From a virus: a stretch of 64,000 nt of DNA. The notes beneath the pieces are model-generated. The model was not told the origin of the DNA. It was given only the letters and a program-made list of their open reading frames with translations, and did no database searches. Below, piece by piece: positions 1,546 through 58,602 of the stretch. Made by a program: the position numbers and the translations under genes. Each line of letters begins with the position of its first letter. The first letter of the stretch is position 1. The DNA is taken from positions 38,650 through 102,649 of the IMG/VR virus record IMGVR_UViG_3300045988_059940; one strand, given 5' to 3'.

Positions 1546-2664
1546 TTAGTACATACCTGTCAACAGGTCTGTAACTGATTTTTCTTTACTTGTTGCACTC
1601 TGCGAAGTGTGATTTTTAGCAGAGTTTCTTAAAAGTTTTCTAAGTTTCTCAGCAGCAGACGTTTCGCCAGTCTTTTTTGCTGTTGAAACTACGGCATCAC
1701 CTTTCATAGTAAAGTAAGCAGATTCGATTAGGTTCTTTGCTAGATTAGAATCAAAGTCCTTCTGGTATTGTGTATAACCATCTTTATCTGTCTTGAAAAT
1801 ATAATCATACAAAGCTTTGCGGTCTGCTTTTGGGATAGCAATGCCACGAATTGAATCTAAACTATTAATACTATCTGTTACAGATTTCATAAATTGCTGT
1901 TGTTGAGCCTCTTGTTGTCTAGCCAACTCTGCCTGTTGCTTAGCATTTGCTTCTGCTTCATTCTTACGAATTTCTTTAAGCATCTCCAAAGCGTCTTCCG
2001 ACTCTTCGTATAATACGCCAGCATCTTCATATCTAGCAATCTTGTTATTAATCTGTTCATCTGTGTAGCCGTTGTGACGAAGCAAATCACCAATTACAGT
2101 ACGTTGATTGGATTCTGATTCCAAATCAATGTTATCAAGAGTAAGTGCTTGTTTTTGTACTTGATAGAAATCTTCAAACTTACCACCATTCTTTACAAAC
2201 TCATCTAACTTCTATATCCTATCATCTGCATACTGTGGAACTGAGTTCTACTGTACAACATCTGTAAGGTACTTAGTTAGACCATCTACTGTAAGTGGTC
2301 TTTCTTCATCACTAATGTCTGCTATATTCCAACCTAATGATTCAGCAACAGCATCGAACAAAACACCAACTTGTTGTGCCTCAGCAACATCTTCATCAGT
2401 TGGTTCATTTTCATCGACGTCTTGTGTATCTTCTTTATCATCAGATTGTTCTTTGTCAGCAGGCTCTGTGTCTGCTGCTTGATTTATATCATTATCTTCC
2501 TCATCAGGTTCATCGCCTTCTGGTTCTTTAATTTCTGTTACTTCGTCCTCAACCACAATATCTTCATCCAAGTTAGTAGCACTAGTATCTCCTTCTGAAT
2601 TACCGTACATGCTTAACAGGTCATCAAATGTGGATGGATTAGTTTCTTGTTTACGTTTTGCCAT
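1546..2664 (-). CDS. Acidic, coiled-coil head scaffolding-like protein (372 codons, 2 in-frame TAG)
   Basis: Track ORFs 2248..2664 and 1546..2124 share one frame. The only in-frame stops between them are TAG (2248-2250, 2212-2214), and the true stop is TAA at 1546-1548. It has a D/E-rich N-terminal half, a Q/A/E-rich helical segment, and sits just upstream of the capsid gene. Confidence 0.6.
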
Positions 2665-2713
2665 AATTATTAATTAATAATTAAATTATTTGTTTCGCTG
2701 TTTAATCAGCGTA

Positions 2714-3349
2714 TTACCATTCAGTATAATCATAAGGTCGCCTTAGAGTTGTAGGGACACCTTTTTTGGTTTTACCATACAACTAATCACGCATACCTTT
2801 CAATACTTTTTTCATATCTGGAACACCTTTTGTTTTGGCGTTCTTTGGATTTAGCTTCCATTTACTCATTGCAGCATCTATGCTCTTCATGTTAGCCATA
2901 CGATTACTATATGTGTCATATGAAGATTCATAGTATCCTGCGTCTTTTAGTATTCTGGCTGCTTTTCTTGGGTCTGTTTCGTCTAGTACATTATTGTACT
3001 TTTTATCCATTAAGAGATTGTCGCTAATGTAATAGTTAGCAAAGTCTTGTTCGTTTTTAAATTGTTTGTATTGATTAATATTTGGACTAACAATACCTCC
3101 ATAATTGTGTAGATTTCTAGCAATAGGAGATGTACCATTTAATGACTCCAATGCAGTTTGACGCATAGCATTATCTAGCCAATCTAGTTTTCCGACTTCT
3201 TGCAATCTGTCATATAATGCTGGTGCCATCTTTTCAACATATTCATCGTACTAGTCTTTGCCTCCTGCATAATTACGAATATCCCAATAGTTTTCACCAT
3301 TCTTCCAACGGTCAAATCTTTCTTGAAAAGACTTAGTATTATATCTCAT
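2714..3349 (-). CDS. Hypothetical head-module protein (211 codons, 2 in-frame TAG)
   Basis: ATG at 3349 lies 2 nt after the portal TGA. It is in frame with track ORF 2783..3229. TAG occurs at 3251-3253 and 2783-2785, and the terminal stop is TAA at 2714-2716. Confidence 0.6.
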
Positions 3350-3351
3350 AA

Positions 3352-5835
3352 TCAATTCTCCCCAGGAACTTTATTTTTTATAGCCACCTTAGCTTTAAGT
3401 CTTTCACGTTCAAGAGCAGCATCATCTTTTTGCTTTTGTAGCTCCATTTCATGGTTCATGCGCTTCTTTTCCAAGTCAATCTTAGCATCTTCTATTTCAC
3501 GCTTTTGACGTGCTTCATAGCGTTTCTAATAAGCATCTTGGTCAATCTTACGCAGCTGCGTAGCTTCTCTTGCCATCTCTAATGGGTCTGGAATACCGTT
3601 CATATCAATATCCTTATTCTCAGTACCACGATATGTACTAATCTCAGCAACTGCAATCTTAGTTTGATTATCAGCATCAATACGATAGCGTTCAAGGTCC
3701 ATTTCAGCCTCTTTTAGCATAAGTTCTTGTTGCTTAGCTTCATTCTACATTTGTTGTAATTGCATTTGAGCTTGTTGTTCTTGTTGTTGCTGCTGTTGTT
3801 GTAATTGCTCTTGACGAGTTTGCATATCTTGCAGTTTCTGCTTAATGATATTGAAGTTATCACTGGTAAGTAATTCCGCTGCTTCAAGTAAGCTAGCGCC
3901 ATTTTGCATAGCAGGTTGTATAAGCTGTTGAAGTTTTTGTATATTCTCCAAATCCTTAGAAGCATCACTTACAAATACATCCATATCTTCATAATAGAAC
4001 TTCTGTGATATATTTAAGAATGCCCTTTCACCATTATCGAATACATATGAAAGCTTTTGTTTTCCTGAGTCTTGCCAAGCACCTTTGGCTGTATTTAGCA
4101 GCATGTTTAATACTCTGCGCTTACATTGATTGTGTACCCAGAATAAAGGCTCTGTAATATGTGAAGATTGTACAACAGAACGCTCTACATTACCAACAAG
4201 TTCAGATGAACTAATTGCACCTTGACGTTGTTCTGTAATACCAGATATAGTACCTGCAAGCTGTTCAATCTTATCCATTAATTGAATATATTCAGATATG
4301 ACATTACTCATTGTTAAGTCAAGAGCTGTAATCTAATTGAACTGAGCAGGTTTTCCACCTTCTCTCCCTGGCACATTCCAACCTTCGTCATATGGATTAA
4401 TGAAGTTTACACCAACACTCGATAGATAGTGCATCCAACGTTCTGGTGTAATATTCATAGACTTAGGTATCTATGTAATGTCCATATTTACAACCTTACC
4501 TTTATCTCTTGCAATAGCCAACTCCAACCTATACCACAATACAATATACATGTATTGTAGAGGTTTAAGGATACTAACCAAAGACCTGGGCCTACTATTA
4601 GTATTGCTGTATACACAACCACAATATGGAAGCTTTTGTGAATTAGGATTATCAAGACTTACAAATTGATACTCTATTGGTTGTATACCGAAGTATAAGT
4701 CATTTCCTGCTTTATATCCTTCCCAGACCTCTATAATCCAGTCTGGTTCTACTGCTAGTTCTGTACCTACCTTCTTGTATGTCTCATCACATATATTGAT
4801 TTGTGGTTCACCATTTTCGTCCATCGTGGTCACATAGAATATCTTCTTGAAAGATTTCCAGCAACAGTGATATACATCTACATGGTGTTTAGAGTTCATG
4901 TCTCCACCGTCTGAAAGGTCAATAGAACGCATTCTAATGCCCTAGAACGTATCAACACCATCCTTCTCGATGTTATCTACACCAGGTGCACCAGAGAGCA
5001 TCTCATTGAGTTTATTTAGCTCTTTTTCACTAAGTTTATCATAATACCTATCATACACCTCTTGTATAGGTAATTTCATCTTACGAACACACCAAGAACC
5101 ATCTTCTATAAACTCTAAATCTGGACTCTTATCATAATTAAAGTATAAAGGATTTACACGTTCTGCATAAGGGTCACCATTTTGTACACCAACATAATAT
5201 ACTTCTGTACCACTAATTAGACCGTCTTTCCAACCTTTAATAAATTCGTTAGCTAAACCTAGTTTTTCTTTTAAGTACTCCAATGTGTGGTATGCTGTGT
5301 TTTCTATAATATCTTTGTAGTCCTTATCCATATATTTAGCAATAGCTTCTGGTGGCATTATCTCCCCAGATTGCAGTTGTTGTTCAAACTGCTACTGCTC
5401 TTCTGGACTCATTTTTGATTTTATTGATGCCATTATATACTACATCAACATATCCTTTTCTTTGTCTTGCAGCTCTGATACAGCATCCTGTGATGTACGT
5501 ATAACTCTAAAATTCATTGGTCGTTTTGTTTCTTCACCAATTAATAAGTCTATCTTTGGACGTACTATATTAAAGTCCTGTGGAGTAGCAGGAAATCCAT
5601 CATCTACCTTAAATGGATTGGTTATACGTTTAAAGTCGTCCTCATTGAACACACTATTGTATAAATCATAGTATGTTTGCATTTCACTAACATTACTACC
5701 TTTAACTAGTGCTGAATTACTTTTTGATTCGCCTATGATATAATCGACACACTTATGTTGCCAATCCTTATCTTTCTTTGTAAGTGGTAGTTTTTGTTGC
5801 GGAAACGAAGAAGTATGTAAATTACTATCTATCAT
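3352..5835 (-). CDS. Portal protein (827 codons, 7 in-frame TAG)
   Basis: Track ORFs 5440..5835, 4942..5358, 4471..4932, 3745..4311 and 3526..3720 are all in one frame. They are joined by TAG only (5440, 5392, 4942, 4471, 4333, 3745, 3526), with a terminal TGA at 3352-3354. The start lies 5 nt after the TerL stop, and the size and position are typical of a portal. Confidence 0.6.
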
Positions 5836-22056: not shown

Positions 22057-22082
22057 GTATTATTTTATATTAATTTATATAG

Positions 22083-22170
22083 ACGCCCCAGTAGGAGTCG
22101 AACCTACCCTGTCACCTTCAGAAGATACGCGGTTTTAGAGACCGCCAGTGCCACCGTACACCATAGGGCG
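22083..22170 (-). tRNA. Amber suppressor tRNA, anticodon CUA, class II (long variable arm)
   Basis: Hand fold: CGCCCTA / TG / GTG..CAC D-arm / GCGGT-CTCTAAA-ACCGC / 21-nt variable arm / GTAGG-TTCGACT-CCTAC / TGGGGCG / T73. The anticodon loop is C-U-CUA-A-A. Confidence 0.85.
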
Positions 22171-22495: not shown

Positions 22496-22585
22496 TCCCT
22501 AGAATACGAGTCGAACGTACATCTTCAATAAACATTGGCATGCATATTTATTGTTGTGCTAATTTACCAATTACACCACCTAGGG
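22496..22585 (-). ncRNA. tRNA-like element with an aberrant, extended anticodon arm
   Basis: The acceptor (CCCTAGG/TCTAGGG), a D-arm containing GG, and the T-arm (GTACG-TTCGACT-CGTAT) look normal. The anticodon arm, however, is a 10-bp helix (CAATAAATAT/ATGTTTATTG) capped by an 8-nt loop, GCATGCCA. Confidence 0.5.
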
Positions 22586-32385: not shown

Positions 32386-32395
32386 AAGCATTACC

Positions 32396-32700
32396 TAATC
32401 CAGCCACACCACAGTGACAGTCCTAAGCCTGTTAAATGGAGAAGGGGTAATTGTAAACAACTCTAAATTGAATATGGGTAATGAGCCTACGCCCCGTTTA
32501 GATAGTTTACAGCTCACCTAACGAGCAGCTCACTCAAAGTATATGTGGAATACTGAGAGTAAAAGAGGCGGCCGATAACCAAATCCGAGTTTATATATTT
32601 AGAAAAGCTTTATCAGCAAAACGAACATTATTGTGCACAATAATGTTTATGTGTAGTTTAGTCCAACAATATGTTTCTGCTCTGGAAGTTTTTACACATT
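32396..32700 (+). ncRNA. Structured element A (copy 1 of a roughly 300-nt family)
   Basis: It shares with element B, in the same order, TAATC(C/T)AGCCA, then GTCCTAAGCC, then GAGAAGGGG(G)TAA, then the hairpin TCATAGGTATTATGA. There is no ORF. Confidence 0.4.
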
Positions 32701-32773
32701 TCTCCCTTAGCTCAATCTAGTCAGAGCATCATAGGTATTATGAAAGATTCTGGTGCAAATCCAGAAGGGAGAA
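32701..32773 (+). ncRNA. tRNA-like element with a shortened (15-nt) anticodon arm
   Basis: The acceptor (TCTCCCT/AGGGAGA) is perfect, and the D-arm (GCTC/GAGC) and T-arm (TCTGG-TGCAAAT-CCAGA) are present. The anticodon arm is TCATA-GGTAT-TATGA, with a 5-nt loop, or 4 bp plus AGGTATT. Confidence 0.5.
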
Positions 32774-32945: not shown

Positions 32946-32954
32946 CGTTTATCT

Positions 32955-33253
32955 TAATCTAGCCAGTCCCAATGTCGGTCCTAAGCCCGAAATGCGTTCA
33001 TTACGTATAATAGAGAAGGGGGTAAACGCACACCAAAAATGGCGTAATTAACCAAGGTGTGTCTCTCAGTCCAGACGTAAGAGAGTAATCCGCTCATAGT
33101 GGGAATATGAGTGAAAAAATACAATTAAGTAAGTAGTTGTAGAAAGAATTAAAATAAGTGCTTACTCACAAAACCGAAAATAATGTGTTTGGGTTTATCG
33201 TAGCGCGCAAAGAAGCGGATTTCAGAACACATAATCGTCATAGGTATTATGAC
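32955..33253 (+). ncRNA. Structured element B (copy 2 of the family)
   Basis: It has the same ordered motifs as element A (32955, 32978, 33012, hairpin 33237-33253) plus many local helices such as CACACC/GGTGTG, CTCTC/GAGAG and CTCATA/TATGAG. Confidence 0.4.
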
Positions 33254-33861
33254 AATCTTTCTCTCTTAGTTTAAATAATAAAACATCTATAAGATAGGAA
33301 ATATTGAAACACCTATTAATAGAAGATATTGGCGTAAATCCAATAGAGAGAACTATTTTATTCAAATATAGCAGTAACTATTATACCAAAAACTTAATAA
33401 CTTTCCAAGTCATTGAGGACACCAGTTTCTTACACCCAGTAAGTTTTAGGTGTAAAATGCAATTCAAGACACTAATCACGTCTAGAATCCATCTTTGTTT
33501 GAATTGATTACTCAAACGGAGAAATACCCGTAAAACGGAGCTCAACTACAAAATACGCTCGTAGTTGCTGAGTATAGGTAGAATTGTGTTTAGTAATTGA
33601 GTACGAGGATACGAAGTTACGTGACACTCTGGAAAGACAGAGAGTATGCTTAATTGCGCAAGTAAGTATACTAGCACTATCGTATAACATATAGATTACG
33701 CTCCGTGCTGTCGGAGAAATGTAGGCTTATTACCTACTAGTGCACTAATTGTTGTCAGCCCCTGTGTGAATAATAGTAACACTTATAGGAACTGTCTGGT
33801 GTGGTCACGAAAGTGGCAATTTAATCATAGCTTAATTAAATCCTGCTATGGGGTAAATATT

Positions 33862-38103: not shown

Positions 38104-38286
38104 ACAAAAGACTTTTAATGTGGCCAAAGACAGTTGCAAGCCTGTAAACACAGAGCAAAAAGTCCATTTTACTTATTTAATTCAATTTTAAATGTTTAAC
38201 GTTATTATCTTTAATAAGCAAACAGAATGCCAGTATTAGCGAATACTTTTGAAGTATAGTGCTTGTGAAAGTATTATACTTTTTAT

Positions 38287-39930: not shown

Positions 39931-40369
39931 CTGGTGATGTACAAAAATCAGTATTCAAAATCGAGAGTCTTAGAACCAGTGATTAGCAGAGGAGGAAGGG
40001 AATTAGTTTAACGTTGGACGGATGTTAGTGTATAGAACACCTCGTCTGGTGAATTAACACCAGCTACAAGAGCCTTTGAGCCAGTAGGAATACGAACTTC
40101 TGAAAATACGGAAGTAAAACTATATTAGTATCAAAAATACGTTGCATCTGAGCCAGAGAGCCGAACAAAAAGGTTTAGAGAAACATAATGATGTTCGTGC
40201 AATATATCAAGAGATACGCGTGTCGTAACAAGAACCATTGAGTCAGTTTACATAAACACGTATATTTACCTGTTTAATTGCGTTCTAAGCAATCATAACG
40301 TATTGGATGGATTAGCTACCCAGAAGGTATAATATATGCGCTTAAAACAAAAAAGAATAGGGTCTTTTT
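39931..40369 (+). ncRNA. ORF-free structured region (candidate ncRNA or 3' UTR)
   Basis: About 440 nt without an ORF, ending at the terminator at 40370-40401. Confidence 0.3.
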
Positions 40370-44333: not shown

Positions 44334-44339
44334 TAGTAA

Positions 44340-46480
44340 GACGATTTAGGTCTCATTAGCCAATAATCGCTCAAACATCAAAAAATTTACTTGGTCCGAG
44401 AATATGTTAACCTTCTCAAAAGGCAAGATGTCCGAAAAAGTGTGGACTATCAAAAGGTAGGACGAAAGACAAGATTGGTGTGAAAAGCCAACTTGTATAG
44501 GGGATAGTGACGCATCAAAACCCCTACACGTGTATAAACCAGTTGCAGTCCTTTATGCTGAACTAGGATAATCTTATCGTGGTGTACACGTAAGGAACAG
44601 CACATAAATCACGGCCTTGAAAAATAGATAACCGTGTAAAAGTTGATGCCGTATCGTAGACAATGCTTTTAGATACAAATTGTATTGTAACGTAACACGA
44701 GTTGAATTTATCAATTAGTCAGGACTATAAAGAGGCGCTCTTGTAGTCTTATAGGGGATGGATGTGGATGGTAGTGATGATGAGGTCCAACTCTCATTGA
44801 TAAAGTATCAGTAAGTCGAGCATAGTGTTCATGAGGTCCAAAGTCATTATGAAGGTGCGAAAAAATATGTGGAGTAAAACAATATCGTGAGGATAATGCT
44901 CACGGGGTGTACCGTAACTATGCCGCCTATGTAAGGCCAGTTCCGTGCAACTCGGATGCCTCTCGTCACGCGCGTAGGGGAGTAAGTGGGTAAAACGGCT
45001 GATTTATGGTGATGCATGACCGCCAGGCTTTTGTTGTTTATGCGGGATATAAAAGTGAAACAACCAGGAGAGTGGGGCAGACTCTTAATGCGAAGTAGGG
45101 CTAACAAGCTTGAAGGCTACGCGAAACGAGTGCGCGGACAAACACTGATTTAATATGAATATACCTGGCTAGACGAGGTGAAGATGTAAGTTATTCATAT
45201 AAGATAGATAGAACTAAAAAGCTACTATCCACTACGATGACAACGTTACAGTCAAAAAATGTACGCTTGCATACAATCAAGCCGAACCAAATTAGGTTTA
45301 TCGGTTCCAATGCCATATTGCCAATGGTAGTGAAGACCCATTAACCTTTGATGTAATAAATAATCAAGGTGTATCACTATTATAATAATATCATTATATC
45401 TCTATTGGAGTAATTAAACCAGTATATATGATGTGCATTATGATATATACAAACAAACCAGAGATGAAATAAAAACATCACAAATGAGAGTAAATAACAT
45501 GTTTAACAAAAATAGGTGTCCCCCGATAGGTGCCACTTTCGTTGTAAGAAAGAGCTGAGTCGGAAGCCTGAGTGCCAACCGTGACTTTGAAAAAATTATA
45601 CAGAATAAACTATACAATTTCCGTCTAAGTTTGAACCGCCGAACGTGAATACATTAATAGGTAACCGTGGACGGTAATTGAAGTAGGACAGCAAATCTTT
45701 ATAGATTTATAGAGTAGTTATCCATTAATTGATGGGCAGCAACAACCTAAGTACGTCCTTGCAATAAGGATAGGGAGTTAGTGACTCATTGGTGTACACT
45801 GTCTATGTACATTGATAGGGAATGTTGTGGGTGACAAGAAGCGTGGGTAGGGTTGAAATCCCAAGTATTCGAGCACTTCTCAATGAAAAGCGAGATAAAA
45901 CAAATGAGGAAGCAAAATCCAAGAGAAGAAACAGCCGTAGCATCCGAGATACCCCTTGAAGGCTAGATGGTCCGATAATGAAACGTCGCTATTACGTTAT
46001 AGTATAGCTGAGAGAGGCCTGGTCGCCACCTCGAATAAGAATTGAAAGCACCAGCAACTGAGAAAACTGCAAACAACGATATGACCGATAGTCTTGAAAA
46101 AGACAATGTCGCCATACTTTCGGTGTCGTATACTGACAATGGCAAAAGCACTACGGGTTAGTGTGGAGAGAATTTTTATTAAGTAAGTAACAATTTTTTC
46201 AAAACAATTTTCGTGGGTTAAACTTATAAACAGGGTGTAATGCATTCTGTATGAGTTTTTTATTTAAGAATTTAAATTACAAAATACAAGCACTTGAATG
46301 TGCATTTTCGGCATTTGAAGTTTCAAGTAAACAAATTTAGGCTAAGCTAATCCTACCATTGGATTCCCTTGTATTTGACTTCCATACTACTTGTAGATAG
46401 GATATATAATACATGTTTGTTGAAATAGTAAACGACCTCTCATTAGCACGGTTAAACCGAATCTTATTTTAAACTGAGTG
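44340..46480 (+). ncRNA. Roughly 2.1-kb ORF-free, G+C-enriched, helix-dense region (one or two large ncRNA candidates)
   Basis: No credible ORF on either strand, even when TAG is read through. It has many local stems and an AT-rich break at about 45360-45500, and it ends at the terminator at 46481-46516. Confidence 0.4.
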
Positions 46481-46516
46481 TCGGTGCGTCGAGCCACCGA
46501 GCCTGCACCAATTTTT
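46481..46516 (+). terminator. Terminator-like hairpin with a T-run
   Basis: TCGGTG..CACCGA and GGTGC..GCACC helices followed by AATTTTT. Confidence 0.55.
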
Positions 46517-46574
46517 AATTCCGACTAGCGTTTACGTTAGTTAATCAATAACAATTTCAAAAAGGTAAACAAAA

Positions 46575-48636: not shown

Positions 48637-48691
48637 AAACTTATGGTTTTCGGGCCAGCTTTATGCGACAGTTCGACTCTGTCTAAGTTTA
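48637..48691 (+). ncRNA. Mini tRNA-like element (55 nt: acceptor stem plus T-arm only)
   Basis: AAACTTA / 23-nt linker / GACAG-TTCGACT-CTGTC / TAAGTTT-A. The acceptor is a perfect 7 bp and the T-stem a perfect 5 bp. Confidence 0.5.
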
Positions 48692-48812
48692 CAACGCGTT
48701 TAAGGCTATTTTAAGCGCTTCTATGCCACTCAAATTTATTTTTGGACTAATCTATTGATTTGTTGATTTGAGTGTCTTAAAACGAAAATAAACAGTATAA
48801 CACATTATCAAA

Positions 48813-50906: not shown

Positions 50907-50994
50907 GGTTCCATATGTCAGAAGATTGGTAAACTGACCAGTAATTTTACTGAACGATATATCGTTATAGCGAGTTCGATTCTTTCTGGAACTG
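50907..50994 (+). ncRNA. Class II tRNA-like element with a truncated anticodon arm (pseudo-tRNA or decoy)
   Basis: The acceptor (GGTTCCA/TGGAACT), D-arm (GTCA/TGAC) and long variable hairpin (AACGATATATCGTT) are present. The T-loop is TTCGATT with an imperfect stem, and the anticodon arm is only CAGTA-ATTT-TACTG. Confidence 0.45.
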
Positions 50995-51090: not shown

Positions 51091-52968
51091 ATGATTATAC
51101 GAAACAAAACAGTCATTACATATGACATTGAAGTTTTCCACAACGTATTTCATTGTACGTGTAAAGATACAGAAACAGGTCAGTTACACTTTTTTGAGTT
51201 AAGTAACAGAAAGAATCAACTAAGAGAATTAGTTGATTTTTTTCGTATTAATACTTATCTATTTTGTGGATATAACAATAAGCATTTTGATGATGTAGTA
51301 ATAAATTATATCATTGATATGATTAATGTAATAGAAACAAAAACTCGATTAAGAGTGGCTGAATCTATTTTTAATCTTTCACAAACAATAATTACGTCTG
51401 AGGAAGATATTAGTCCATTTAAGAAGTGGAAGTATATGTATAATTTTGCTTCTATGGACTTGCTTACAATGCAATTTAGTTCAAAATTACGTGTGGGCTT
51501 AAAGGAAATGCAAGTAACTATGTATTATCCTAACGTAAAAGAATATGCAGGAGATTTTAACGACAACCTGGCAGATTCTGAAATTGACGAAATGATTGCA
51601 TACAACATTAATGATGTTGATTCTACTACGGAGTTATTAAACAGATTAAAATCTGATATAGAATTACGAGAATATATACGACAAGAATATGACATTGATG
51701 CATTGTCTATGGACGGCGTTAAGATTGGTGAGACTTTACTATTGAAAAAGTATTGTGAAGCTACAAATCTAGACCAAGAATATGTGAAAACATTAAGCAG
51801 TCCAATGGATTATATTGCATTAAAAGATGTAATATTACCTATCGTACAATTTAAAAATCCGATTTTAAAAGACGTTCTTGACGAGATGAAAGCCCAAGTT
51901 GTCTACACAAAAGAACGCAAAGGCTATGAGAAGAAGTTTGTTCTCTCAAATGTGTGCTATTCTATTGGAGTAGGAGGAATACATTCCATCCATACTCCTA
52001 GAATCTTCACTCCTAATGCAGATGAATATATTGGACACAGCGATGTAGCATCAATGTATCCGTCCTTTATTATACAGTATGGATGGATACCACAACATTT
52101 AGGTAAAGATTTTTGGCAGGTGTACAGCGCAGTTTACAATGAGCGCATAGAAGCCAAACGTGTCAAACAGAAGTTGAAGGATAAAGTATTAAAGCTTTCC
52201 TTGAACGCTGTTACAGGGAAAATGCAACAAGAGACAAGTTGGATGTACGACCCACTGTCAGTATTTAAAATACGAATTAACGGACAATTAGTTCTGTTGA
52301 TGTTAGTGGAGCGTCTATTAGAGTTAGGTTGTAAGATTGTACAAGTTAACACTGACGGAGTGGTGTATATTGCAAAAAAAGACAAAGCCGAACAAGTAGG
52401 GCAGAGTATTAGAGAAATAGAGCAATTAACACGCTTGTCATTTGAAACAGATAGATACGAAGCGTTTTATCAGTACGCAATCAATGATTATTTCGGTGTC
52501 GTTGATGGTTTCTCTCAATCTAGGGACGAGAAACTGATAGAAAAGAAAGGTATGTTTATCACCAACACCAACCTTGGGAAAGGGTTAACTCCAACCGTAA
52601 TACCAAAGGCGGTGATAAACTATTTTGTAAACAAAGAACCAGTGTCAGAATTTATTAAGAAAGATGAAAACATCTGTGACTTTCTTATGGCACAAAAATG
52701 CGACAGAAAGTTTAAAGTTATACATGGAGAAAAGCCTGTACAACGTATTAATAGATTTTACGCATCAACGAATGACTATTCGTTATTCAAAGTTTCACCA
52801 GAAGGAAAAGAGATTAATATGCTCACAAAATCTGGTGTAACAATCTTGAACCAATTAGATAGTAAGCCGATAGGGGAGAGACATCTAAACTATCTATATT
52901 ATATTAGTGAAGCGAAGAAAATTATTCACGCTTTTGAATGTAGACAGTTAGATTTATTTAATGATTAA
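51091..52968 (+). CDS. Family B DNA polymerase
   Basis: ExoI is YDIEVF, ExoII is YNNKHFDDVVI and ExoIII is YNINDVDST. Motif A is SDVASMYPS, motif B is KLSLNAVTGKM and motif C is VNTDGV. There is no internal TAG. Confidence 0.85.
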   Translation: MIIRNKTVITYDIEVFHNVFHCTCKDTETGQLHFFELSNRKNQLRELVDFFRINTYLFCGYNNKHFDDVVINYIIDMINVIETKTRLRVAESIFNLSQTIITSEEDISPFKKWKYMYNFASMDLLTMQFSSKLRVGLKEMQVTMYYPNVKEYAGDFNDNLADSEIDEMIAYNINDVDSTTELLNRLKSDIELREYIRQEYDIDALSMDGVKIGETLLLKKYCEATNLDQEYVKTLSSPMDYIALKDVILPIVQFKNPILKDVLDEMKAQVVYTKERKGYEKKFVLSNVCYSIGVGGIHSIHTPRIFTPNADEYIGHSDVASMYPSFIIQYGWIPQHLGKDFWQVYSAVYNERIEAKRVKQKLKDKVLKLSLNAVTGKMQQETSWMYDPLSVFKIRINGQLVLLMLVERLLELGCKIVQVNTDGVVYIAKKDKAEQVGQSIREIEQLTRLSFETDRYEAFYQYAINDYFGVVDGFSQSRDEKLIEKKGMFITNTNLGKGLTPTVIPKAVINYFVNKEPVSEFIKKDENICDFLMAQKCDRKFKVIHGEKPVQRINRFYASTNDYSLFKVSPEGKEINMLTKSGVTILNQLDSKPIGERHLNYLYYISEAKKIIHAFECRQLDLFND

Positions 52969-54995: not shown

Positions 54996-55736
54996 ATGTT
55001 AGTATTACCTACAACGAAAATTCCAGCTAAGTCTACAAATCCGAAGTATTTAATTATATACGGATTACCTAAATCTGGCAAAACGTCAGCAGTAGCACAG
55101 CTAGAAAATAATTTGATTATAGACCTAGAAGGCGGTTCTACGTTTATTGATGCAATGTCAATACAATGTAGAACTATAAACGAATTAGGCGAAGCCGCAC
55201 AAGCAATTCGCGCTAAGAATGAAGAAGTAGGAAAAAACTTTTACAAACATATAACCATTGACAATGCTACGCGATTAGAAGATATTTGTCTATCATTTGC
55301 AGCACAGCTTTATAGGAAAACAGAGCTTGGAAAGAATTGGAAAGGAGATGACGTAACAACGTTACCTCGTGGTGCTGGATATAAGTATCTACGAGACGCG
55401 GTAAAAAAGGTTATAGATATGTTTAAAGACTTGTGTGATGAGTTTATTCTCATTGGACATGTCAAAGATAGCATTATCGAGAAAGATGGCGAAGAAGTGA
55501 CCGCTAAGGAGATAGACCTTGTCGGCAAACTTGGTAAAATTATATGCGGATTGTCAGATGCAGTAGGATACATCTATCGCAAGGGAAATGAAACCCATAT
55601 CTCATTTAAAGGAGGTACTGACGAAACTATAATGGAAGCAAGAGCTAAGCATATTGCTGGTAAAGATATAGTAATCGCCACTGGAAACGAAGATGGTTCT
55701 ATCACTACGTATTGGGATAGAATCTATAAAGATTAA
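54996..55736 (+). CDS. RecA-like / AAA_24 (Sak4-like) ATPase
   Basis: The Walker A motif is YGLPKSGKTS and the Walker B-like segment is FILIGH. Confidence 0.55.
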   Translation: MLVLPTTKIPAKSTNPKYLIIYGLPKSGKTSAVAQLENNLIIDLEGGSTFIDAMSIQCRTINELGEAAQAIRAKNEEVGKNFYKHITIDNATRLEDICLSFAAQLYRKTELGKNWKGDDVTTLPRGAGYKYLRDAVKKVIDMFKDLCDEFILIGHVKDSIIEKDGEEVTAKEIDLVGKLGKIICGLSDAVGYIYRKGNETHISFKGGTDETIMEARAKHIAGKDIVIATGNEDGSITTYWDRIYKD

Positions 55737-55767
55737 AAACAAATTTAGAACTTATAAGTCAATAATT

Positions 55768-56328
55768 ATGTACAATACGAAAACAGCCGTAACACAAGAG
55801 CAAGAATTTACTTCTGCTTATATGCCCGCAGGTATTAACGAAAACGTAACTTTAAAAGAAGTAAACGTACGTAAGTCACCTACGGACAAAGATTTTTTAG
55901 AGTTTATCTTCGAAGATGTTGACGGAAAAACCGCTAGCATGACAGAATGGAAAAACGAAAAGAACATGTGGATTAAGACCGACGAAGATTTGCAACGTCG
56001 TGATGATTTACAGTTCGGTCGTATTATGCAGATTATAAACTGCTACTATCCTGCAATCGAAGGTTCTTTCGATACATTTAAGGAGATGATTGAGTGGGTT
56101 AAGAAACAGCTTGACCCAATGATTAATACTAAGAAGGCATTGCGTCTAAAAGTAGTTTACGATAACCGTAACTACACGCGCGTATCTTCAAATGGTATCT
56201 TTGTAGAACCAATGACCGTTGAAGACTCTAAAATTAAGAAGTTTGCTCGTGACACTTTCGAGCGACAAATTGTTGCTGACGAAGAGTCAAAACAGGCGGC
56301 AGCAGCTGATAGTGACCTGCCTTTCTAA
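55768..56328 (+). CDS. Single-stranded DNA-binding protein candidate
   Basis: The C-terminal tip ...AAADSDLPF resembles the bacterial SSB tail (DDDIPF). The gene sits in the replication module. Confidence 0.5.
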   Translation: MYNTKTAVTQEQEFTSAYMPAGINENVTLKEVNVRKSPTDKDFLEFIFEDVDGKTASMTEWKNEKNMWIKTDEDLQRRDDLQFGRIMQIINCYYPAIEGSFDTFKEMIEWVKKQLDPMINTKKALRLKVVYDNRNYTRVSSNGIFVEPMTVEDSKIKKFARDTFERQIVADEESKQAAAADSDLPF

Positions 56329-56363
56329 AACTATCCAGTTAAGGGTTCTGTAAAAACCCATAA

Positions 56364-56458
56364 GACACGAATGTGGAACTACAAAAAGTTGATTAATCAT
56401 AGGTTCTTATTTATTGTTGTATTGTAGTTGAGGGGTTCGATTCCCCTCCGTGTCACCA
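56364..56458 (+). ncRNA. tRNA-like element (92 nt plus encoded CCA) with a non-canonical core
   Basis: The acceptor is GACACG/CGTGTC, the T-arm is AGGGG-TTCGATT-CCCCT, and A73 plus CCA are encoded. The core is replaced by an 8-bp helix (AACTACAA/TTGTAGTT) enclosing about 37 nt. Confidence 0.45.
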
Positions 56459-56510
56459 AACAGAGTATTTTTATAAAACGTTTTGTTTGTGAAACTTAGT
56501 ATTAGTTTCA

Positions 56511-56570
56511 GGCAATAGTCTTGGAGATTTCTTTGTAAAAAGATTAGCGGTTCGATTCCGTGTATTGCCA
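56511..56570 (+). ncRNA. Mini tRNA-like element (60 nt)
   Basis: GGCAATA / TCTTT-GTAA-AAAGA hairpin / GCGG-TTCGATT-CCGT / TATTGCC-A. Confidence 0.5.
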
Positions 56571-56589
56571 CTAACTTAAATTATTTCAT

Positions 56590-56922
56590 ATGAAATTTAA
56601 AATTAAAAAGATTGATTACGGAGAAGGTAATGTTCATTATGTTATATTAAAACGAAATTGGCTAGGATTATATGTAAAATTCTTCTATAAAATAAATGGG
56701 TACCATATATATGAATGGAATGATGTGTGTATGAAGCAATTCAATCGAAAAATACTACATTTGACACAAATGGCGTTCGATGAATGCATTATATTAAAAC
56801 ATCTACTTGGTTATAGTGTATTAGACTATTTTACAGACATAGATGCAGCAAAGCATTTTATCAGACTAGTTATAAAATATAAAAAGAAACGTAAAAAAAT
56901 AACATATGAAAAATATCCGTAA
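56590..56922 (+). CDS. Hypothetical protein (110 aa)
   Basis: Track ORF with AT-rich coding composition, embedded in the tRNA-like array. Confidence 0.5.
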   Translation: MKFKIKKIDYGEGNVHYVILKRNWLGLYVKFFYKINGYHIYEWNDVCMKQFNRKILHLTQMAFDECIILKHLLGYSVLDYFTDIDAAKHFIRLVIKYKKKRKKITYEKYP

Positions 56923-56928
56923 TTTTTA

Positions 56929-56989
56929 GGTAATAGCTTCGGAAGCCTCTTCATAAAAAGAGAGTATTGGTTCGACTCCAATATTACCA
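56929..56989 (+). ncRNA. Mini tRNA-like element (61 nt)
   Basis: GGTAATA / GCTT-CGG-AAGC / CTCTT-CATAAA-AAGAG / TTGG-TTCGACT-CCAA / TATTACC-A. Confidence 0.5.
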
Positions 56990-57433
56990 CAACATGCAGT
57001 CTGGTGTAATTAACCCAAGTTAGAATGTGTACAATTCGATGCGGGTGGAGTATGAAAAGAAAATAAGTAGAAGTAGAAAAACTCGCGAATAAGTATATTT
57101 TAAAAGTTTTCAAAGTAATATCTTGCAGACCATCTATGAGGATGGAGGTTGGAGATAACAAGTTTATCTACTGCATTATGGGGGTATATGGCTTTGATTT
57201 TAGACGGAAGATATGTAAGCATGTAGAGCTTGTAACAGCTCTTAAATATAGTTACAATAAAATTAACCGACAACGTTATTTTGTCAATTGCAGCTTAATT
57301 GAATAATAGTAAATTTGGCGCACATTACACAGAACCACTCAAAGTAACTGTATATGTAATGTAATTATTTGGGATTCAAAATGTTTATTCATAATTTTAA
57401 ACATGTAGAAAGCATATAATAACTCTGAAAGAC

Positions 57434-57458
57434 GTGGGTTCGAATCCCACTACCTCCA
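57434..57458 (+). ncRNA. Orphan T-arm plus 3' acceptor strand (tRNA 3' half-like)
   Basis: GTGGG-TTCGAAT-CCCAC-TACCTCC-A. The only candidate 5' partner (GGAGGTT) lies about 290 nt upstream at 57144. Confidence 0.35.
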
Positions 57459-57560
57459 CAAGGCCATTCTTTTGCGTTTTAAGCGCTTAATACAGCTCTC
57501 TAACACATTTCATCACCTCCCAGTGTTGAGTGGCTTAGAACAAAAAAGAATGGCTAATTT

Positions 57561-57606
57561 GAGTAATAATATAGGAACAAGGAAGGTTCAAATCCTTCAT
57601 TACTCA
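57561..57606 (+). ncRNA. Minimal tRNA-like minihelix (46 nt)
   Basis: GAGTAAT / 14-nt linker / GAAGG-TTCAAAT-CCTTC / ATTACTC-A. Confidence 0.5.
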
Positions 57607-57630
57607 CACTAACTAAGAACTTATAAGTCA

Positions 57631-58602
57631 ATGTATAGTACAAAAACCGCAATAACCATGAGTTTACGTGATTTGTTGTCTATGTTAGATGATGAAAGCA
57701 TTTACACTTATTATTTAGGTTCTATTAAAGTAAATAAGCTAATCAATTCACCTATAAGAGATGGAGATAAAAATCCATCATTTGCAATATTTAGAGGAAA
57801 AGAAGGAGGTTTATTCTTTAAAGACCACGGAACTGGCGAAGGAGGTAACTCATTTAAATTCGTTAAGTTAATGGCCAAAATAGATACACGAGAAGAGCTA
57901 GAAAAAGAACTTCTACGTATAGTCAAAAAAACTAATCCAAGTATGATAGTAAAGAATCATACGTATTTTACGGTAGAACATACAGTAGATATAGGAGTAG
58001 TAAGACAGCCATTTACGGAAGTAGATAAGAGGTTTTGGAAGCAATTTCATATATCTCTTGATACTTTACGTAAATACCAAGTTTTTAGCATTAAATACTT
58101 TCTTTGTAATAGAATCGTCAAAGGAATCTACAAAGAAGATAGTCCTATGTATGCATATAAAGTGTTAGATAAGTTTAAGATTTATCGACCACTAGCGTCG
58201 AAGTATACTAAATGGCGTTCGAATCTGACAAATTCGTATGTTCAGGGACTATCCGAAATACCTATCGACGGAGGTAATCTGCTAATAATCACAAAATCAT
58301 TGAAAGATGTTATGTGTTGTTATGAGATGGGATTTAATGCAATAGCAGCTTCAAGTGAAACTTCTTTTATACCAGAAGATATACTAGAAGACTTAAAAAA
58401 TAAGTGGAAAAATATTGTAATACTATACGATAGAGATAAAACAGGAATGTTGAAGGCTAGACAATATAGTAGACAGTATAAATTAGATGCATTTTTTATC
58501 CATAGGAGATTTAAAGCAAAAGATTTATCTGATGCAATAAAACTAAATGGATTTGACCAAGTAAACAAATGGTTATCAAAAACATTAGAAAATTATGTTT
58601 AA
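57631..58602 (+). CDS. DnaG/TOPRIM-type DNA primase
   Basis: The N-terminal primase-like segment is DKNPSFAIFRGKEGGLFFKDHGTGEGGN, and the TOPRIM region is LLIITKSLKDVMC...AASSE...ILYDRDKTG. Confidence 0.65.
   Translation: MYSTKTAITMSLRDLLSMLDDESIYTYYLGSIKVNKLINSPIRDGDKNPSFAIFRGKEGGLFFKDHGTGEGGNSFKFVKLMAKIDTREELEKELLRIVKKTNPSMIVKNHTYFTVEHTVDIGVVRQPFTEVDKRFWKQFHISLDTLRKYQVFSIKYFLCNRIVKGIYKEDSPMYAYKVLDKFKIYRPLASKYTKWRSNLTNSYVQGLSEIPIDGGNLLIITKSLKDVMCCYEMGFNAIAASSETSFIPEDILEDLKNKWKNIVILYDRDKTGMLKARQYSRQYKLDAFFIHRRFKAKDLSDAIKLNGFDQVNKWLSKTLENYV

What the first reader, a model, noticed from the sequence alone, without database searches (positions are those of the whole stretch)
56364..57606. A 1.2-kb array of tRNA-like minihelices with perfect acceptor and T-arms but truncated or missing anticodon domains
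Between the SSB and primase genes there are five elements with canonical T-loops (TTCGATT, TTCGACT, TTCGAAT, TTCAAAT). Four of them also have a 6-7-bp acceptor stem; the fifth has only a 3' acceptor strand:
- 56364-56458: 92 nt, core replaced by an 8-bp helix, and CCA is encoded.
- 56511-56570: 60 nt, with a single internal hairpin carrying a 4-nt loop.
- 56929-56989: 61 nt, with hairpins GCTT-CGG-AAGC and CTCTT-CATAAA-AAGAG.
- 57434-57458: a T-arm plus a 3' acceptor strand only.
- 57561-57606: 46 nt, acceptor plus T-arm with a 14-nt linker.

Similar elements occur at 48637-48691, 50907-50994, 32701-32773 and 22496-22585.

Random decay of tRNA genes would not preserve perfect 7-bp acceptor and T stems while consistently altering the anticodon arm. 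Possible roles:
- RNase P/Z 'punctuation' signals for transcript processing.
- Substrates or decoys for CCA-adding enzyme, synthetases or EF-Tu.
- Decoys against host tRNA-targeting (anticodon nuclease) defences.
Basis: partly seen in the sequence, partly recalled or inferred. Interest (0 to 1): 0.7.

Follow-up and report, generated by a model that had tools for sequence, protein, structure and literature searches.

The report
Phage tRNA-like minihelices between genes
A crAss-like gut phage has, between two replication genes, four miniature tRNA-shaped RNAs and a complete tmRNA gene; the smallest belongs to an apparently undescribed phage-wide family that sits exactly between genes, most likely as cutting signals for the host's tRNA-processing enzymes.

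Summary
The observation largely holds. Four co-oriented tRNA-shaped elements lie at 56364-56455, 56511-56570, 56929-56989 and 57561-57606. They have intact acceptor and T arms but no usable anticodon domain, and neither ARAGORN nor Rfam's tRNA model accepts them.

One element was misread.

The window is a crAss-like phage (Suoliviridae). These are not decaying pseudogenes:
- Stems covary, and E3 and E5 are 98-100% conserved next to an ORF that is 72% conserved.
- In 76 related loci, some tRNA or tRNA-like element ends 15-26 nt before the primase start codon, whatever its type.

E5 belongs to a family of 43-46-nt minihelices with an invariant linker, GGAACAAG. The family occurs in about 14 lineages of viral and metagenomic contigs: 359 of 360 cells paired, covariation 1.0 against 0.27. 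Only 1 of 120 listed pattern hits in cellular genomes forms the minihelix. Members always lie between same-strand ORFs, often with the upstream TAA ending on nucleotide +1.

Best explanation (about 0.5): cis-acting RNase P/RNase Z processing signals, like plant-mitochondrial t-elements. Cleavage is inferred, not shown. Decoy roles are unsupported.

The parts
56343..56359 (+). Hairpin GGGUU-CUGUAAA-AACCC, 14 nt after the SSB-like stop codon and 4 nt before E1. Its 7-nt loop is identical to the bacterial tRNA-Tyr anticodon loop.
   Evidence: Fold. Conserved, with one covarying stem pair, in L005 and L008-L025.
56364..56458 (+). E1: a 92-nt tRNA-like RNA followed by an encoded CCA. It has a 6-bp acceptor, a linker AAUGUGGAAC, an 8-bp helix with a variable apex in place of the D and anticodon arms, and a 6-bp T stem with loop UUCGAUU.
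   Evidence: Compensatory changes against L005 in the acceptor (GACACG/CGUGUC to GACAUG/CAUGUC) and in the helix. The homologous class in other genera has 10 of 17 pairs compensatory.
56491..56509 (+). Hairpin GAAACU-UAGUAUU-AGUUUC, ending 1 nt before E2.
   Evidence: Read from the sequence.
56511..56570 (+). E2: a 60-nt miniature cloverleaf with a 7-bp acceptor, a 3-bp hairpin with a 3-nt loop, a 5-bp hairpin with a 4-nt loop, and a T arm. It ends 19 nt before the ATG of the 110-codon ORF.
   Evidence: Present in L003-type contigs; a clean indel relative to L005.
56590..56922 (+). A 110-codon ORF of unknown function, bracketed by E2 and E3.
   Evidence: 72% nucleotide identity to L005.
56929..56989 (+). 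E3: a 61-nt miniature cloverleaf, apparently a paralogue of E2, with a 6-nt 'anticodon' loop. It starts 6 nt after the ORF's stop codon.
   Evidence: 98% identical to L005 while the adjacent ORF is 72% identical.
57180..57461 (+). Complete tmRNA gene, shortened relative to the Rfam model. It has a G3:U70 pair, and the tag frame at 57269-57298 encodes DNVILSIAA followed by a stop.
   Evidence: Rfam RF00023, 95.4 bits against a gathering score of 47.. Present in L003 and absent from L005.
57462..57555 (+). 'S' hairpin: a long imperfect inverted repeat that fills the gap between the tmRNA and E5. It belongs to a repeated family carrying the motif CTTAGAACRNAAA.
   Evidence: -35.6 kcal/mol, z = -7.15. 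The motif occurs 8 times against 1.4 expected. The closing stem covaries in L008- and L009-type loci.
57561..57606 (+). E5: a 46-nt acceptor/T-arm minihelix with linker AAUAUAGGAACAAG. It is a member of the phage-wide GGAACAAG minihelix family.
   Evidence: Family evidence.
57607..57630 (+). A 24-nt leader (CACUAACUAAGAACUUAUAAGUCA) between the E5 discriminator base and the primase ATG. It is conserved across relatives.
48637..48691 (+). A 55-nt tRNA-like element starting 14 nt after an ORF's stop codon, followed by an S-like repeat.
50907..50994 (+). An 88-nt tRNA-Ser-like element with a long variable arm and a G discriminator base. Its 'anticodon' loop has only 4 nt. It lies next to a true tRNA-Ser.
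22497..22585 (-). An 89-nt tRNA-like element whose 'anticodon' arm has a long stem and an oversized loop (7 bp and 14 nt as read from the sequence; the MFE fold extends the stem and leaves 8 nt).

Best explanation
The spacer is a mosaic of structured-RNA modules, all on the gene strand. They are most likely transcribed as part of one replication-module transcript.

Proposed mechanism:
- The tRNA-like elements keep only what host tRNA-processing enzymes read. That is an 11-12-bp acceptor/T coaxial stack, the T loop, and a GG that can form the tRNA 'elbow'.
- RNase P would cut at each element's 5' end. The upstream RNA would then end shortly after its stop codon, often just past a protective hairpin.
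- RNase Z or an equivalent 3' processing enzyme would cut after the discriminator base. The downstream mRNA would then begin with a short 19-25-nt leader.
- The same cuts would also release the tmRNA and the S hairpin as discrete RNAs.

Functionally these are phage counterparts of plant-mitochondrial t-elements and of mitochondrial tRNA punctuation.

Shown here: the structures, their covariation, their fixed placement relative to ORFs, and their interchangeability with true tRNAs.

Inferred, not shown: transcription, cleavage, and any effect on gene expression.
For: 1. No anticodon function. The 'anticodon' loops have 4-6 nt or are missing, and no tool calls these elements tRNAs.

2. Selection on structure.
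- E5 class within crAss-like phages: no broken pairs at 10 of 12 positions, with repeated A-U to G-C swaps.
- GGAACAAG family: 359 of 360 cells paired, 136 cells with changes on both sides against 41 expected, covariation 1.006 against 0.273 (0 of 500 shuffles), and slid controls at or below 0.31.
- E1 class: 10 of 17 pairs compensatory.
- G-U pairs occur on the gene strand and there are no A-C pairs, which points to RNA rather than duplex DNA.

3. Differential conservation between the window and L005. E3 is 98% identical and E5 and the leader 100%, against 72% for the ORF and 60% for the E1 apex.

4. Placement.
- In 76 loci the element nearest primase ends 15-26 nt before the ATG. It may be a 43-46-nt minihelix, a 49-116-nt tRNA-like element, or a true tRNA (Leu in cr131_1, Thr in L031).
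- E2 ends 19 nt before the ORF and E3 starts 6 nt after it. In L005, which lacks E2, E1 ends 20 nt before the same ORF.
- 47% of 124 distinct elements end 5-30 nt before an ORF start, against 6% of random positions.

5. Unrelated phages. The 43-45-nt minihelix occurs alone, with no tRNAs nearby, between same-strand ORFs. The downstream ATG follows 19-43 nt later. In 9-11 of 13 lineages the upstream TAA ends on nucleotide +1.

6. Virus enrichment. 59 of 87 metagenome pattern hits form the minihelix, against 1 of 120 listed hits in cellular genomes.

7. Other RNA-processing elements in the same genome: three twister-like ribozyme hits, RAGATH-12, and long hairpins.

8. No promoter or terminator enrichment in the spacer.

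9. Published precedent. Hairpins made of an acceptor stem, T stem and T loop are efficient RNase P substrates (PMC11143913). t-elements direct RNase P/Z cleavage at mRNA ends (PMC1920247).
Against: - There are no expression or end-mapping data, so cleavage is inferred.
- Only about 10 of 26 intergenic gaps of 60 nt or more in the plus-strand gene block hold a tRNA, tRNA-like element or ribozyme. This is not a genome-wide punctuation system.
- Punctuation needs one element per junction, yet E1 and E2, and E3, the tmRNA and E5, lie in series.
- The 11-nt linker is invariant across lineages whose stems have fully diverged. That may be more constraint than an RNase P substrate needs, and it hints at a specific partner.
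- In the non-crAss lineages, RNase P cleavage would remove the last base of the upstream stop codon and create a non-stop mRNA.
- Whole modules turn over quickly, a pattern also seen in arms-race loci.
Confidence: 0.5

Rival explanations
1. The elements act in trans as tRNA mimics. Once released, and CCA-tailed where needed, the small RNAs bind or titrate a host factor that reads the tRNA acceptor/T-arm/elbow shape. Candidates are SmpB or EF-Tu, the CCA-adding enzyme, T-loop modification enzymes, or a tRNA-directed defence protein.
For: - The linker UUUGGAACAAG is invariant while the stems change completely, which suggests a sequence-specific partner.
- Module turnover in the spacer is high.
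- E1 encodes CCA in the window and in L003. L098-type minihelices also encode CCA.
- E1 resembles a tmRNA tRNA-like domain in which a helix replaces the anticodon arm.
- A tmRNA gene lies in the same spacer.
Against: - With no anticodon loop, the elements cannot mimic targets of anticodon nucleases.
- No acceptor identity elements are conserved: pairs 1-3 and the discriminator base vary, and only the tmRNA has G3:U70.
- A free-acting RNA would not need to sit at a fixed distance from start and stop codons.
- The encoded CCA is not conserved (ACTG in L005).
- No phage-encoded partner enzyme was found among 56 ORFs.
Confidence: 0.17
2. The uncleaved minihelix acts on the ribosome. Because it sits exactly at a stop codon, it folds back after termination. 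This brings the next start codon close, or holds the small subunit, and so promotes termination-reinitiation in hosts (Bacteroidota) that make little use of Shine-Dalgarno pairing.
For: - The upstream TAA ends on nucleotide +1 in 9-11 of 13 non-crAss lineages, and the downstream ATG lies 19-43 nt after the helix.
- RNase P cleavage at that junction would destroy the stop codon, which argues for an uncleaved role there.
- The leader motif TAACTAA recurs in independent lineages.
Against: - In the window and in most crAss-like loci, E5 follows a hairpin rather than an ORF. E3 and E1 start 6 and 35 nt after stop codons.
- True tRNAs occupy the same site in relatives.
- No precedent is known to me for a tRNA-like reinitiation element in bacteria.
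Confidence: 0.13
3. The elements mark DNA-level recombination boundaries. The shared T-arm sequence (GGTTCGANTCC) and the modular ends let cassettes (tRNA-like element plus small ORF, or the tmRNA) be exchanged between phages. The RNA shape would be incidental or secondary.
For: - E2 with its flank, and the tmRNA with its flank, are clean indels.
- Different small ORFs (110, 74 and 107 codons) sit in the same slot in different relatives.
- The junction between the variable element and the conserved leader falls exactly at the discriminator base.
Against: - Compensatory changes that keep RNA pairs, including G-U pairs on one strand only, are not explained by DNA recombination.
- Solitary minihelices in unrelated phages show no local repeats.
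- This idea can coexist with the processing model as a description of how the modules spread.
Confidence: 0.07
4. The elements are decaying tRNA pseudogenes with no function.
For: - The phage carries true tRNAs nearby.
- 50907-50994 looks like a tRNA-Ser copy with a deleted anticodon loop.
- GGAAC-AAG matches an anticodon-stem 3' strand plus variable loop in real tRNAs (L104, L105 and L135). The minihelix therefore probably arose by deletion of tRNA positions ~10-38.
Against: - The covariation is strong.
- Conservation exceeds that of the adjacent ORF.
- The family persists in about 14 lineages and in phage contig stretches (0.7-15 kb held) where no tRNA is found.
Confidence: 0.03

Closest known systems
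Plant-mitochondrial t-elements (Forner et al. 2007, PMC1920247)
   Same: - tRNA-like structures with a conserved GGTTCRANYCC T arm and an acceptor stem but a non-canonical core.
- They lie next to mRNA 5' or 3' ends.
- They act as cis signals for RNase P and RNase Z.
- The excised element can persist and receive non-encoded C or CCA.
   Different: - Those are organellar elements with experimentally mapped ends.
- Here the setting is a DNA phage of Bacteroidota, with no end mapping.
- The phage family has an invariant linker and a 6+6-bp stack, and it is spread across many phage lineages.
Mitochondrial tRNA punctuation (Ojala, Montoya and Attardi 1981; from my own knowledge)
   Same: - ORFs are flanked directly by tRNA-shaped units.
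- In the non-crAss lineages the last A of the TAA stop codon is also nucleotide +1 of the tRNA-like unit. This is the layout at many vertebrate mRNA/tRNA junctions.
   Different: - Mitochondria use real decoding tRNAs and complete the stop codon by polyadenylation.
- Neither is shown here, and only some intergenic gaps of the phage carry such units.
Acceptor/T-arm minihelix model substrates of RNase P (reviewed in PMC11143913)
   Same: E5 is essentially a natural version of this substrate: an acceptor stem stacked on a T stem-loop.
   Different: - The model substrates are synthetic.
- E5 adds a conserved linker whose GG could form the elbow.
tmRNA (Rfam RF00023)
   Same: - 57180-57461 is a member.
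- E1 resembles a tmRNA tRNA-like domain: acceptor, a GG-containing linker, a helix in place of the anticodon arm, and a T arm.
   Different: - E1, E2, E3 and E5 lack a tag reading frame, pseudoknots and G3:U70.
- A tmRNA gene is already annotated in the related phage cr131_1, so the tmRNA itself is not new.
tRNA-like units that release neighbouring RNAs: MALAT1 mascRNA, and the murine gammaherpesvirus 68 tRNA-miRNA units (from my own knowledge)
   Same: A non-decoding tRNA-like unit recruits RNase P or RNase Z to define the end of an adjacent RNA.
   Different: Those are eukaryotic, some are transcribed by RNA polymerase III, and they have cloverleaf-like bodies.
Phage T4 stable RNAs C and D (species 1 and 2) in its tRNA cluster (from my own knowledge)
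   Same: Phage-encoded, tRNA-like, processed by RNase P, and of unknown function.
   Different: They are longer (about 120-140 nt), belong to a tRNA operon, and are not known to sit at ORF boundaries. I made no sequence comparison here.

Membership tests
Canonical tRNA (Rfam RF00005; ARAGORN) | Score at or above the gathering score of 29 bits; a cloverleaf with a D arm and a 7-nt anticodon loop. | tested here: not met
   - E5 scores 23.0 bits and E2 15.2 bits; E1 and E3 get no hit.
- ARAGORN finds none in 56329-57630.
- The 'anticodon' loops have 4-6 nt or are absent.
tmRNA (RF00023), for 57180-57461 | Covariance-model score at or above 47 bits over the full model. | tested here: met
   95.4 bits, model positions 1-374, E = 1e-37. 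L003 scores 91.1 bits.
tmRNA (RF00023), for 57180-57461 | G3:U70 alanine identity pair, and a tag reading frame ending in ...AA followed by a stop codon. | tested here: met
   The acceptor GGGGGUA/UACCUCC has G3-U70. Positions 57269-57298 encode DNVILSIAA followed by a stop.
tmRNA (RF00023), for 57180-57461 | Works with the partner protein SmpB. | tested here: inconclusive
   No SmpB family hit among 56 window ORFs of 100 aa or more. The RNA would have to use the host protein. Only 64 kb of the genome was seen.
t-elements / tRNA-like processing signals | An acceptor stem plus a T arm with the GGTTCRANYCC-type loop, and a non-canonical or missing core. | tested here: met
   The structure is supported by covariation.
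t-elements / tRNA-like processing signals | Element ends coincide with the ends of the neighbouring mRNAs (position next to ORFs, same strand). | tested here: met
   - Genomic placement only.
- Elements end 15-26 nt before the primase ATG in 76 loci.
- E2 ends 19 nt before the 110-codon ORF and E3 starts 6 nt after it.
- Unrelated lineages show the same layout.
t-elements / tRNA-like processing signals | Cleaved by RNase P and RNase Z in vivo or in vitro. | not testable with these tools
   No RNA data are available. The only contigs found for the locus are genomic.
tRNA pseudogene | Neutral decay: stems accumulate mismatches, and conservation is no higher than in the flanking sequence. | tested here: not met
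   - 99.7% of cells paired, with 136 cells changed on both sides.
- E3 and E5 are 98-100% identical between the window and L005, against 72% for the ORF.
Aminoacylatable viral tRNA-like structure or decoy | Conserved synthetase identity elements, or an anticodon loop that a nuclease could recognise. | tested here: not met
   - Acceptor pairs 1-3 and the discriminator base vary freely across the family.
- There is no anticodon loop.
- 50907-50994 does keep a G discriminator and a long variable arm (tRNA-Ser features), so serylation of that one element is not excluded.

The most novel reading that the evidence does not exclude
The GGAACAAG minihelix may be more than a passive cleavage site. It could be a phage-specific gene-expression device that links translation termination of one gene to expression of the next.

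Two mechanisms would fit:
- Mitochondria-like cleavage inside the stop codon. This would leave UA-ended, non-stop messages whose fate depends on trans-translation, which could explain why these phages carry their own tmRNA genes.
- A tRNA-shaped fold that keeps the ribosome on the message for reinitiation in hosts that lack Shine-Dalgarno-driven initiation.
Probability: 0.15. Interest if true: 0.9.

Novelty: new variant of a known kind. Interest (0 to 1): 0.74.

Why it matters
- **Gene expression in crAss-like phages.** If the processing model is right, these abundant gut viruses, and other phages, shape their mRNAs by borrowing host tRNA-processing enzymes. They would do so through miniature tRNA-shaped signals, a strategy so far documented mainly in organelles.
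- **A new RNA family.** Rfam has no model that accepts these elements. The family would be easy to add, because it has an invariant 11-nt linker and two fully covarying helices.
- **Annotation.** It explains many 'empty' intergenic regions and low-scoring 'tRNA pseudogene' calls in phage genomes.
- **A possible tool.** It would provide a compact (43-nt) natural part for separating cistrons in Bacteroidota.
- **Testable questions.** The stop-codon overlap and the co-resident tmRNA raise questions about how phage translation termination and ribosome rescue are connected.

Tried and rejected
Rejected: ARAGORN and Rfam do not accept them, and folding gives truncated cores.
- **Replication origin in the spacer.** Rejected: the cumulative GC skew turns at about 24 kb and 62 kb, not at 56-57 kb.
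- **Host-type promoters or intrinsic terminators inside the spacer.** No enrichment. There were 9 sigma-70-like sites against 10.3 expected, and no Bacteroides -33/-7 pair. The tools do not cover phage-specific promoters.
- **Phage-encoded tRNA enzymes** (CCA-adding enzyme, RNA ligase, RNase P/Z, SmpB). None found among 56 ORFs.
- **Similar DNA in GenBank phage records.** None for the spacer, by megablast or blastn.
- **Transcript-like contigs for the locus.** Only long genomic contigs were found.
- **Literature.** Searches for crAss tRNA-like elements, phage minihelices and phage tRNA punctuation found nothing on these elements.
- **MAFFT alignments of the minihelices.** These misplaced the 5' strand when lengths differed. 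I therefore counted pairs anchored from the ends and on gapless 43-nt sets.
- **Hairpins just upstream of element 5' ends.** The effect is real but modest: median -5.8 against -4.1 kcal/mol, p = 0.002.
- **p-crAssphage for comparison.** The record is not in the collection.
Full report
**What the window is**

The 625-aa ORF at 51091-52968 is 71% identical to the DNA polymerase of crAss-like phage cr131_1 (Crassvirales, Suoliviridae, Oafivirinae). The window has 34.6% G+C.

Genes run on the minus strand up to about 24 kb and on the plus strand from 24.4 to 62.2 kb. The cumulative GC skew turns at those two points.

The finding lies between a 211-aa ORF (55693-56328) and the primase gene.
- The 211-aa ORF has no profile hit but ends in the SSB-type tail ...DSDLPF.
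- The primase gene (57631-58602) matches a PHROG primase family at 3e-30.

**Checking the observation**

All five T-loop sites exist at the stated coordinates. ARAGORN finds six tRNAs elsewhere in the window and none here.

| Element | Coordinates | Description | z-score |
|---|---|---|---|
| E1 | 56364-56455 | 92 nt, followed by an encoded CCA | -3.05 |
| E2 | 56511-56570 | 60 nt | -2.0 |
| E3 | 56929-56989 | 61 nt | -2.1 |
| E5 | 57561-57606 | 46 nt | -2.95 |

Rfam's tRNA model gives E5 23.0 bits and E2 15.2 bits. Both are below the gathering score of 29.

Such sites are far more frequent than chance. The window has 14 against 2.3 in shuffles, and about 0.02 would be expected in the spacer.

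The fifth element was misread. It is the 3' end of a complete tmRNA gene at 57180-57461 (95.4 bits, E = 1e-37).
- The tmRNA has a G3:U70 pair.
- Its tag frame encodes DNVILSIAA followed by a stop codon.
- ARAGORN misses it.
- A tmRNA gene is already annotated in cr131_1 at another position. A tmRNA in this phage family is therefore not new.

**The spacer in relatives**

I collected 74 IMG/VR loci through the primase protein, and added cr131_1 and cr272_1.

The spacer ranges from 305 to 3788 nt. Nearly every relative nevertheless holds several T-arm-plus-acceptor elements that ARAGORN does not call. Their lengths run from 42 to about 130 nt and their cores are very diverse.

Three points argue against decay.

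1. The element nearest primase always ends 15-26 nt before the ATG and is followed by a conserved leader. This holds whether the element is a 43-46-nt minihelix, a 49-, 65-, 74-, 80- or 104-nt tRNA-like element, or a real tRNA (Leu in cr131_1, Thr in L031).
2. Conservation between the window and L005 (primase 90% identical) is uneven. E3 is 98% identical, and E5 and the leader are 100% identical. The 110-codon ORF between E2 and E3 is only 72% identical.
   - E1 keeps its acceptor and helix through compensatory changes while its apex is replaced.
   - E2 and the tmRNA are clean insertions or deletions.
3. The small ORFs are tightly bracketed.
   - E2 ends 19 nt before the ORF, and E3 starts 6 nt after it.
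   - In L005, which lacks E2, E1 ends 20 nt before the same ORF.
   - In L008-type phages a 78-nt element precedes a different 74-codon ORF, and the minihelix follows that ORF's stop codon by 8 nt.

Overall, 47% of 124 distinct elements end 5-30 nt before an ORF start, against 6% of random positions. These cases are not all independent.

Phage crAss001 shows the same layout with true tRNAs.

**E5 belongs to a phage-wide family**

Within crAss-like phages the E5 class covaries at both stems and keeps the linker GGAAC(A)AG.

I searched IMG/VR for the linker plus T loop only. This returned the crAss-like copies and also 43-45-nt minihelices in unrelated viral contigs with 31-53% G+C. A 46-nt relative of the window's own variant turned up in another Suoliviridae genome (L290).

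A metagenome scan gave 87 hits. Of these, 59 form the minihelix, as 28 distinct sequences. In cellular genomes, only 1 of the 120 listed hits forms it, and that contig looks viral.

On 30 distinct 43-nt members:
- 359 of 360 cells pair.
- 11 of 12 pairs show changes on both sides, 136 cells in all, against 41 in shuffles.
- The covariation score is 1.006 against 0.273 (0 of 500 shuffles). Slid controls stay at or below 0.31.
- Caveat: members were kept only if at least 5 of 6 pairs formed in each helix. However, the search pattern specified no stem base other than the G that closes the T stem.

Family features:
- The layout is a 6-bp acceptor, the linker UUUGGAACAAG, a 6-bp T stem, the loop UUCRAUU, and a discriminator base.
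- The stack is 12 bp, as in tRNA, but split 6+6 rather than 7+5.
- In real tRNAs, GGAAC-AAG is the 3' strand of the anticodon stem plus the variable loop (L104, L105 and L135). The family therefore probably arose by deletion of roughly tRNA positions 10-38.
- E1 shares the 6+6 stack and the GGAAC motif, with a hairpin inserted.

Context is uniform.
- The element is solitary, with no tRNA found in the held stretch.
- It lies between same-strand ORFs with unrelated products.
- The next ATG follows 19-43 nt later.
- In 9-11 of 13 non-crAss lineages the upstream ORF's TAA ends exactly on nucleotide +1.

**Mechanism**

The retained parts are those read by RNase P, RNase Z and the CCA-adding enzyme.
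- Hairpins made of an acceptor stem, T stem and T loop are efficient RNase P substrates (PMC11143913).
- Plant-mitochondrial t-elements of the same design direct RNase P and RNase Z cuts at mRNA ends. They were found with the same GGTTCRANYCC screen I used (PMC1920247).

Supporting observations:
- I found no promoter or terminator enrichment in the spacer.
- All the elements are on the gene strand.
- Hairpins tend to end just upstream of the 5' ends of the elements.
- The same genome carries three twister-like ribozyme hits and a RAGATH-12 RNA in other ORF-free islands.

The most economical reading is that these are cis-acting processing signals. They would cut a polycistronic transcript into units and release the tmRNA and the S hairpin. 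I put this at about 0.5.

**What does not fit neatly**
- Only some intergenic gaps carry such elements.
- Several elements lie in series.
- The linker is invariant.
- Cleavage at nucleotide +1 would truncate the stop codon in many lineages.

These points keep two rivals alive: a trans-acting tRNA mimic with a specific partner, and an uncleaved element that couples termination to reinitiation. Decoys for anticodon nucleases and simple pseudogenes are poorly supported.

**Novelty**

I found no description of these elements in the held literature. There is no accepting Rfam family and no similar DNA in GenBank phage records.

The concept of tRNA-like processing signals is known. A conserved phage family of this kind appears to be new.

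Noticed in passing
window 32392-32449, 32951-33023, 38112-38161 (+): Three matches to the type-P1 twister ribozyme. All are below Rfam's gathering score (46.2, 32.2 and 35.6 bits against 67.2) but keep the conserved core nucleotides. They lie in ORF-free islands, one just upstream of tRNA-Leu.
   Followed up: partly
window 33774-33855 (+): RAGATH-12 RNA, 89 bits (gathering score 75). This motif class is known for its association with twister and hammerhead ribozymes.
   Followed up: no
window 22082-22170 (-): An 89-nt tRNA with anticodon CUA and a long variable arm. ARAGORN calls it 'Pyl', and Rfam's tRNA-Sec model gives 42.9 bits, below the gathering score. In the same window the portal PHROG is hit by four separate ORFs. 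This suggests either TAG read-through or interrupted late genes.
   Followed up: partly
window 44334-46574: A 2.2-kb stretch with no long ORF in any frame, even if TAG is read through. G+C is 40%, against 35% overall. An unannotated gap lies at the same place in cr131_1 (L001 2958-4996) and cr272_1 (L002 3117-5341). There is no Rfam hit. It may be a large non-coding RNA.
   Followed up: partly
window 40270-40360, 48719-48790, 57462-57555: A repeated long-hairpin family ('S') with the motif CTTAGAACRNAAA (8 hits against 1.4 expected). Copies sit next to tRNA or tRNA-like elements. The 57462 copy folds at -35.6 kcal/mol (z = -7.15). In relatives the closing stem covaries. Where S lies between two tRNA-like units, tRNA-processing cuts would excise it as a small RNA of about 100 nt.
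   Followed up: partly
window 56343-56359: A hairpin whose 7-nt loop, CUGUAAA, is the same as the bacterial tRNA-Tyr anticodon loop. It lies 4 nt upstream of E1 and is conserved in L005 and L008-L025, with one covarying stem pair.
   Followed up: partly
window 57607-57630; L001, L091, L137, L194, L348: The primase leader carries the palindrome ACTTATAAGT, whose core CTTATAAG recurs (with single-base variants in some loci) across most relatives. The motif TAACTAA recurs in the leader downstream of minihelices in independent lineages, and upstream of the cr131_1 DNA polymerase gene.
   Followed up: partly
L112, L155, L127, L300, L318, L364, L378 and others: In non-crAss phages the upstream ORF's TAA stop codon ends exactly on the first nucleotide of the minihelix. 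This is the same layout as at vertebrate mitochondrial mRNA/tRNA junctions.
   Followed up: yes
L079 40571-40934 (cr131_1 record 90571-90934): The RefSeq record of cr131_1 already annotates a tmRNA. ARAGORN reads it as a permuted tmRNA with tag GNYNVVDYTHVA. It sits at a different genomic position from the window's tmRNA.
   Followed up: no
L080 (crAss001) 1683-5807: Small CDSs are wedged between true tRNAs with gaps of 3-18 nt, and some annotated CDSs overlap the next tRNA. This is the same architecture as in the window, but with decoding tRNAs.
   Followed up: no
window 32701-32773 and 33259-33353: Two paralogous tRNA-shaped elements with non-canonical T loops (UGCAAAU and CGUAAAU). The motif CATAGGTATTATG lies inside the first (32730-32742) and just upstream of the second (33239-33251). 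They lie between the twister-like hits.
   Followed up: no
window 50907-50994: A tRNA-Ser-like element next to a true tRNA-Ser. It keeps the long variable arm and the G discriminator base, which are the features seryl-tRNA synthetase reads. Its 'anticodon' loop has only 4 nt, so it might be charged without being able to decode.
   Followed up: no
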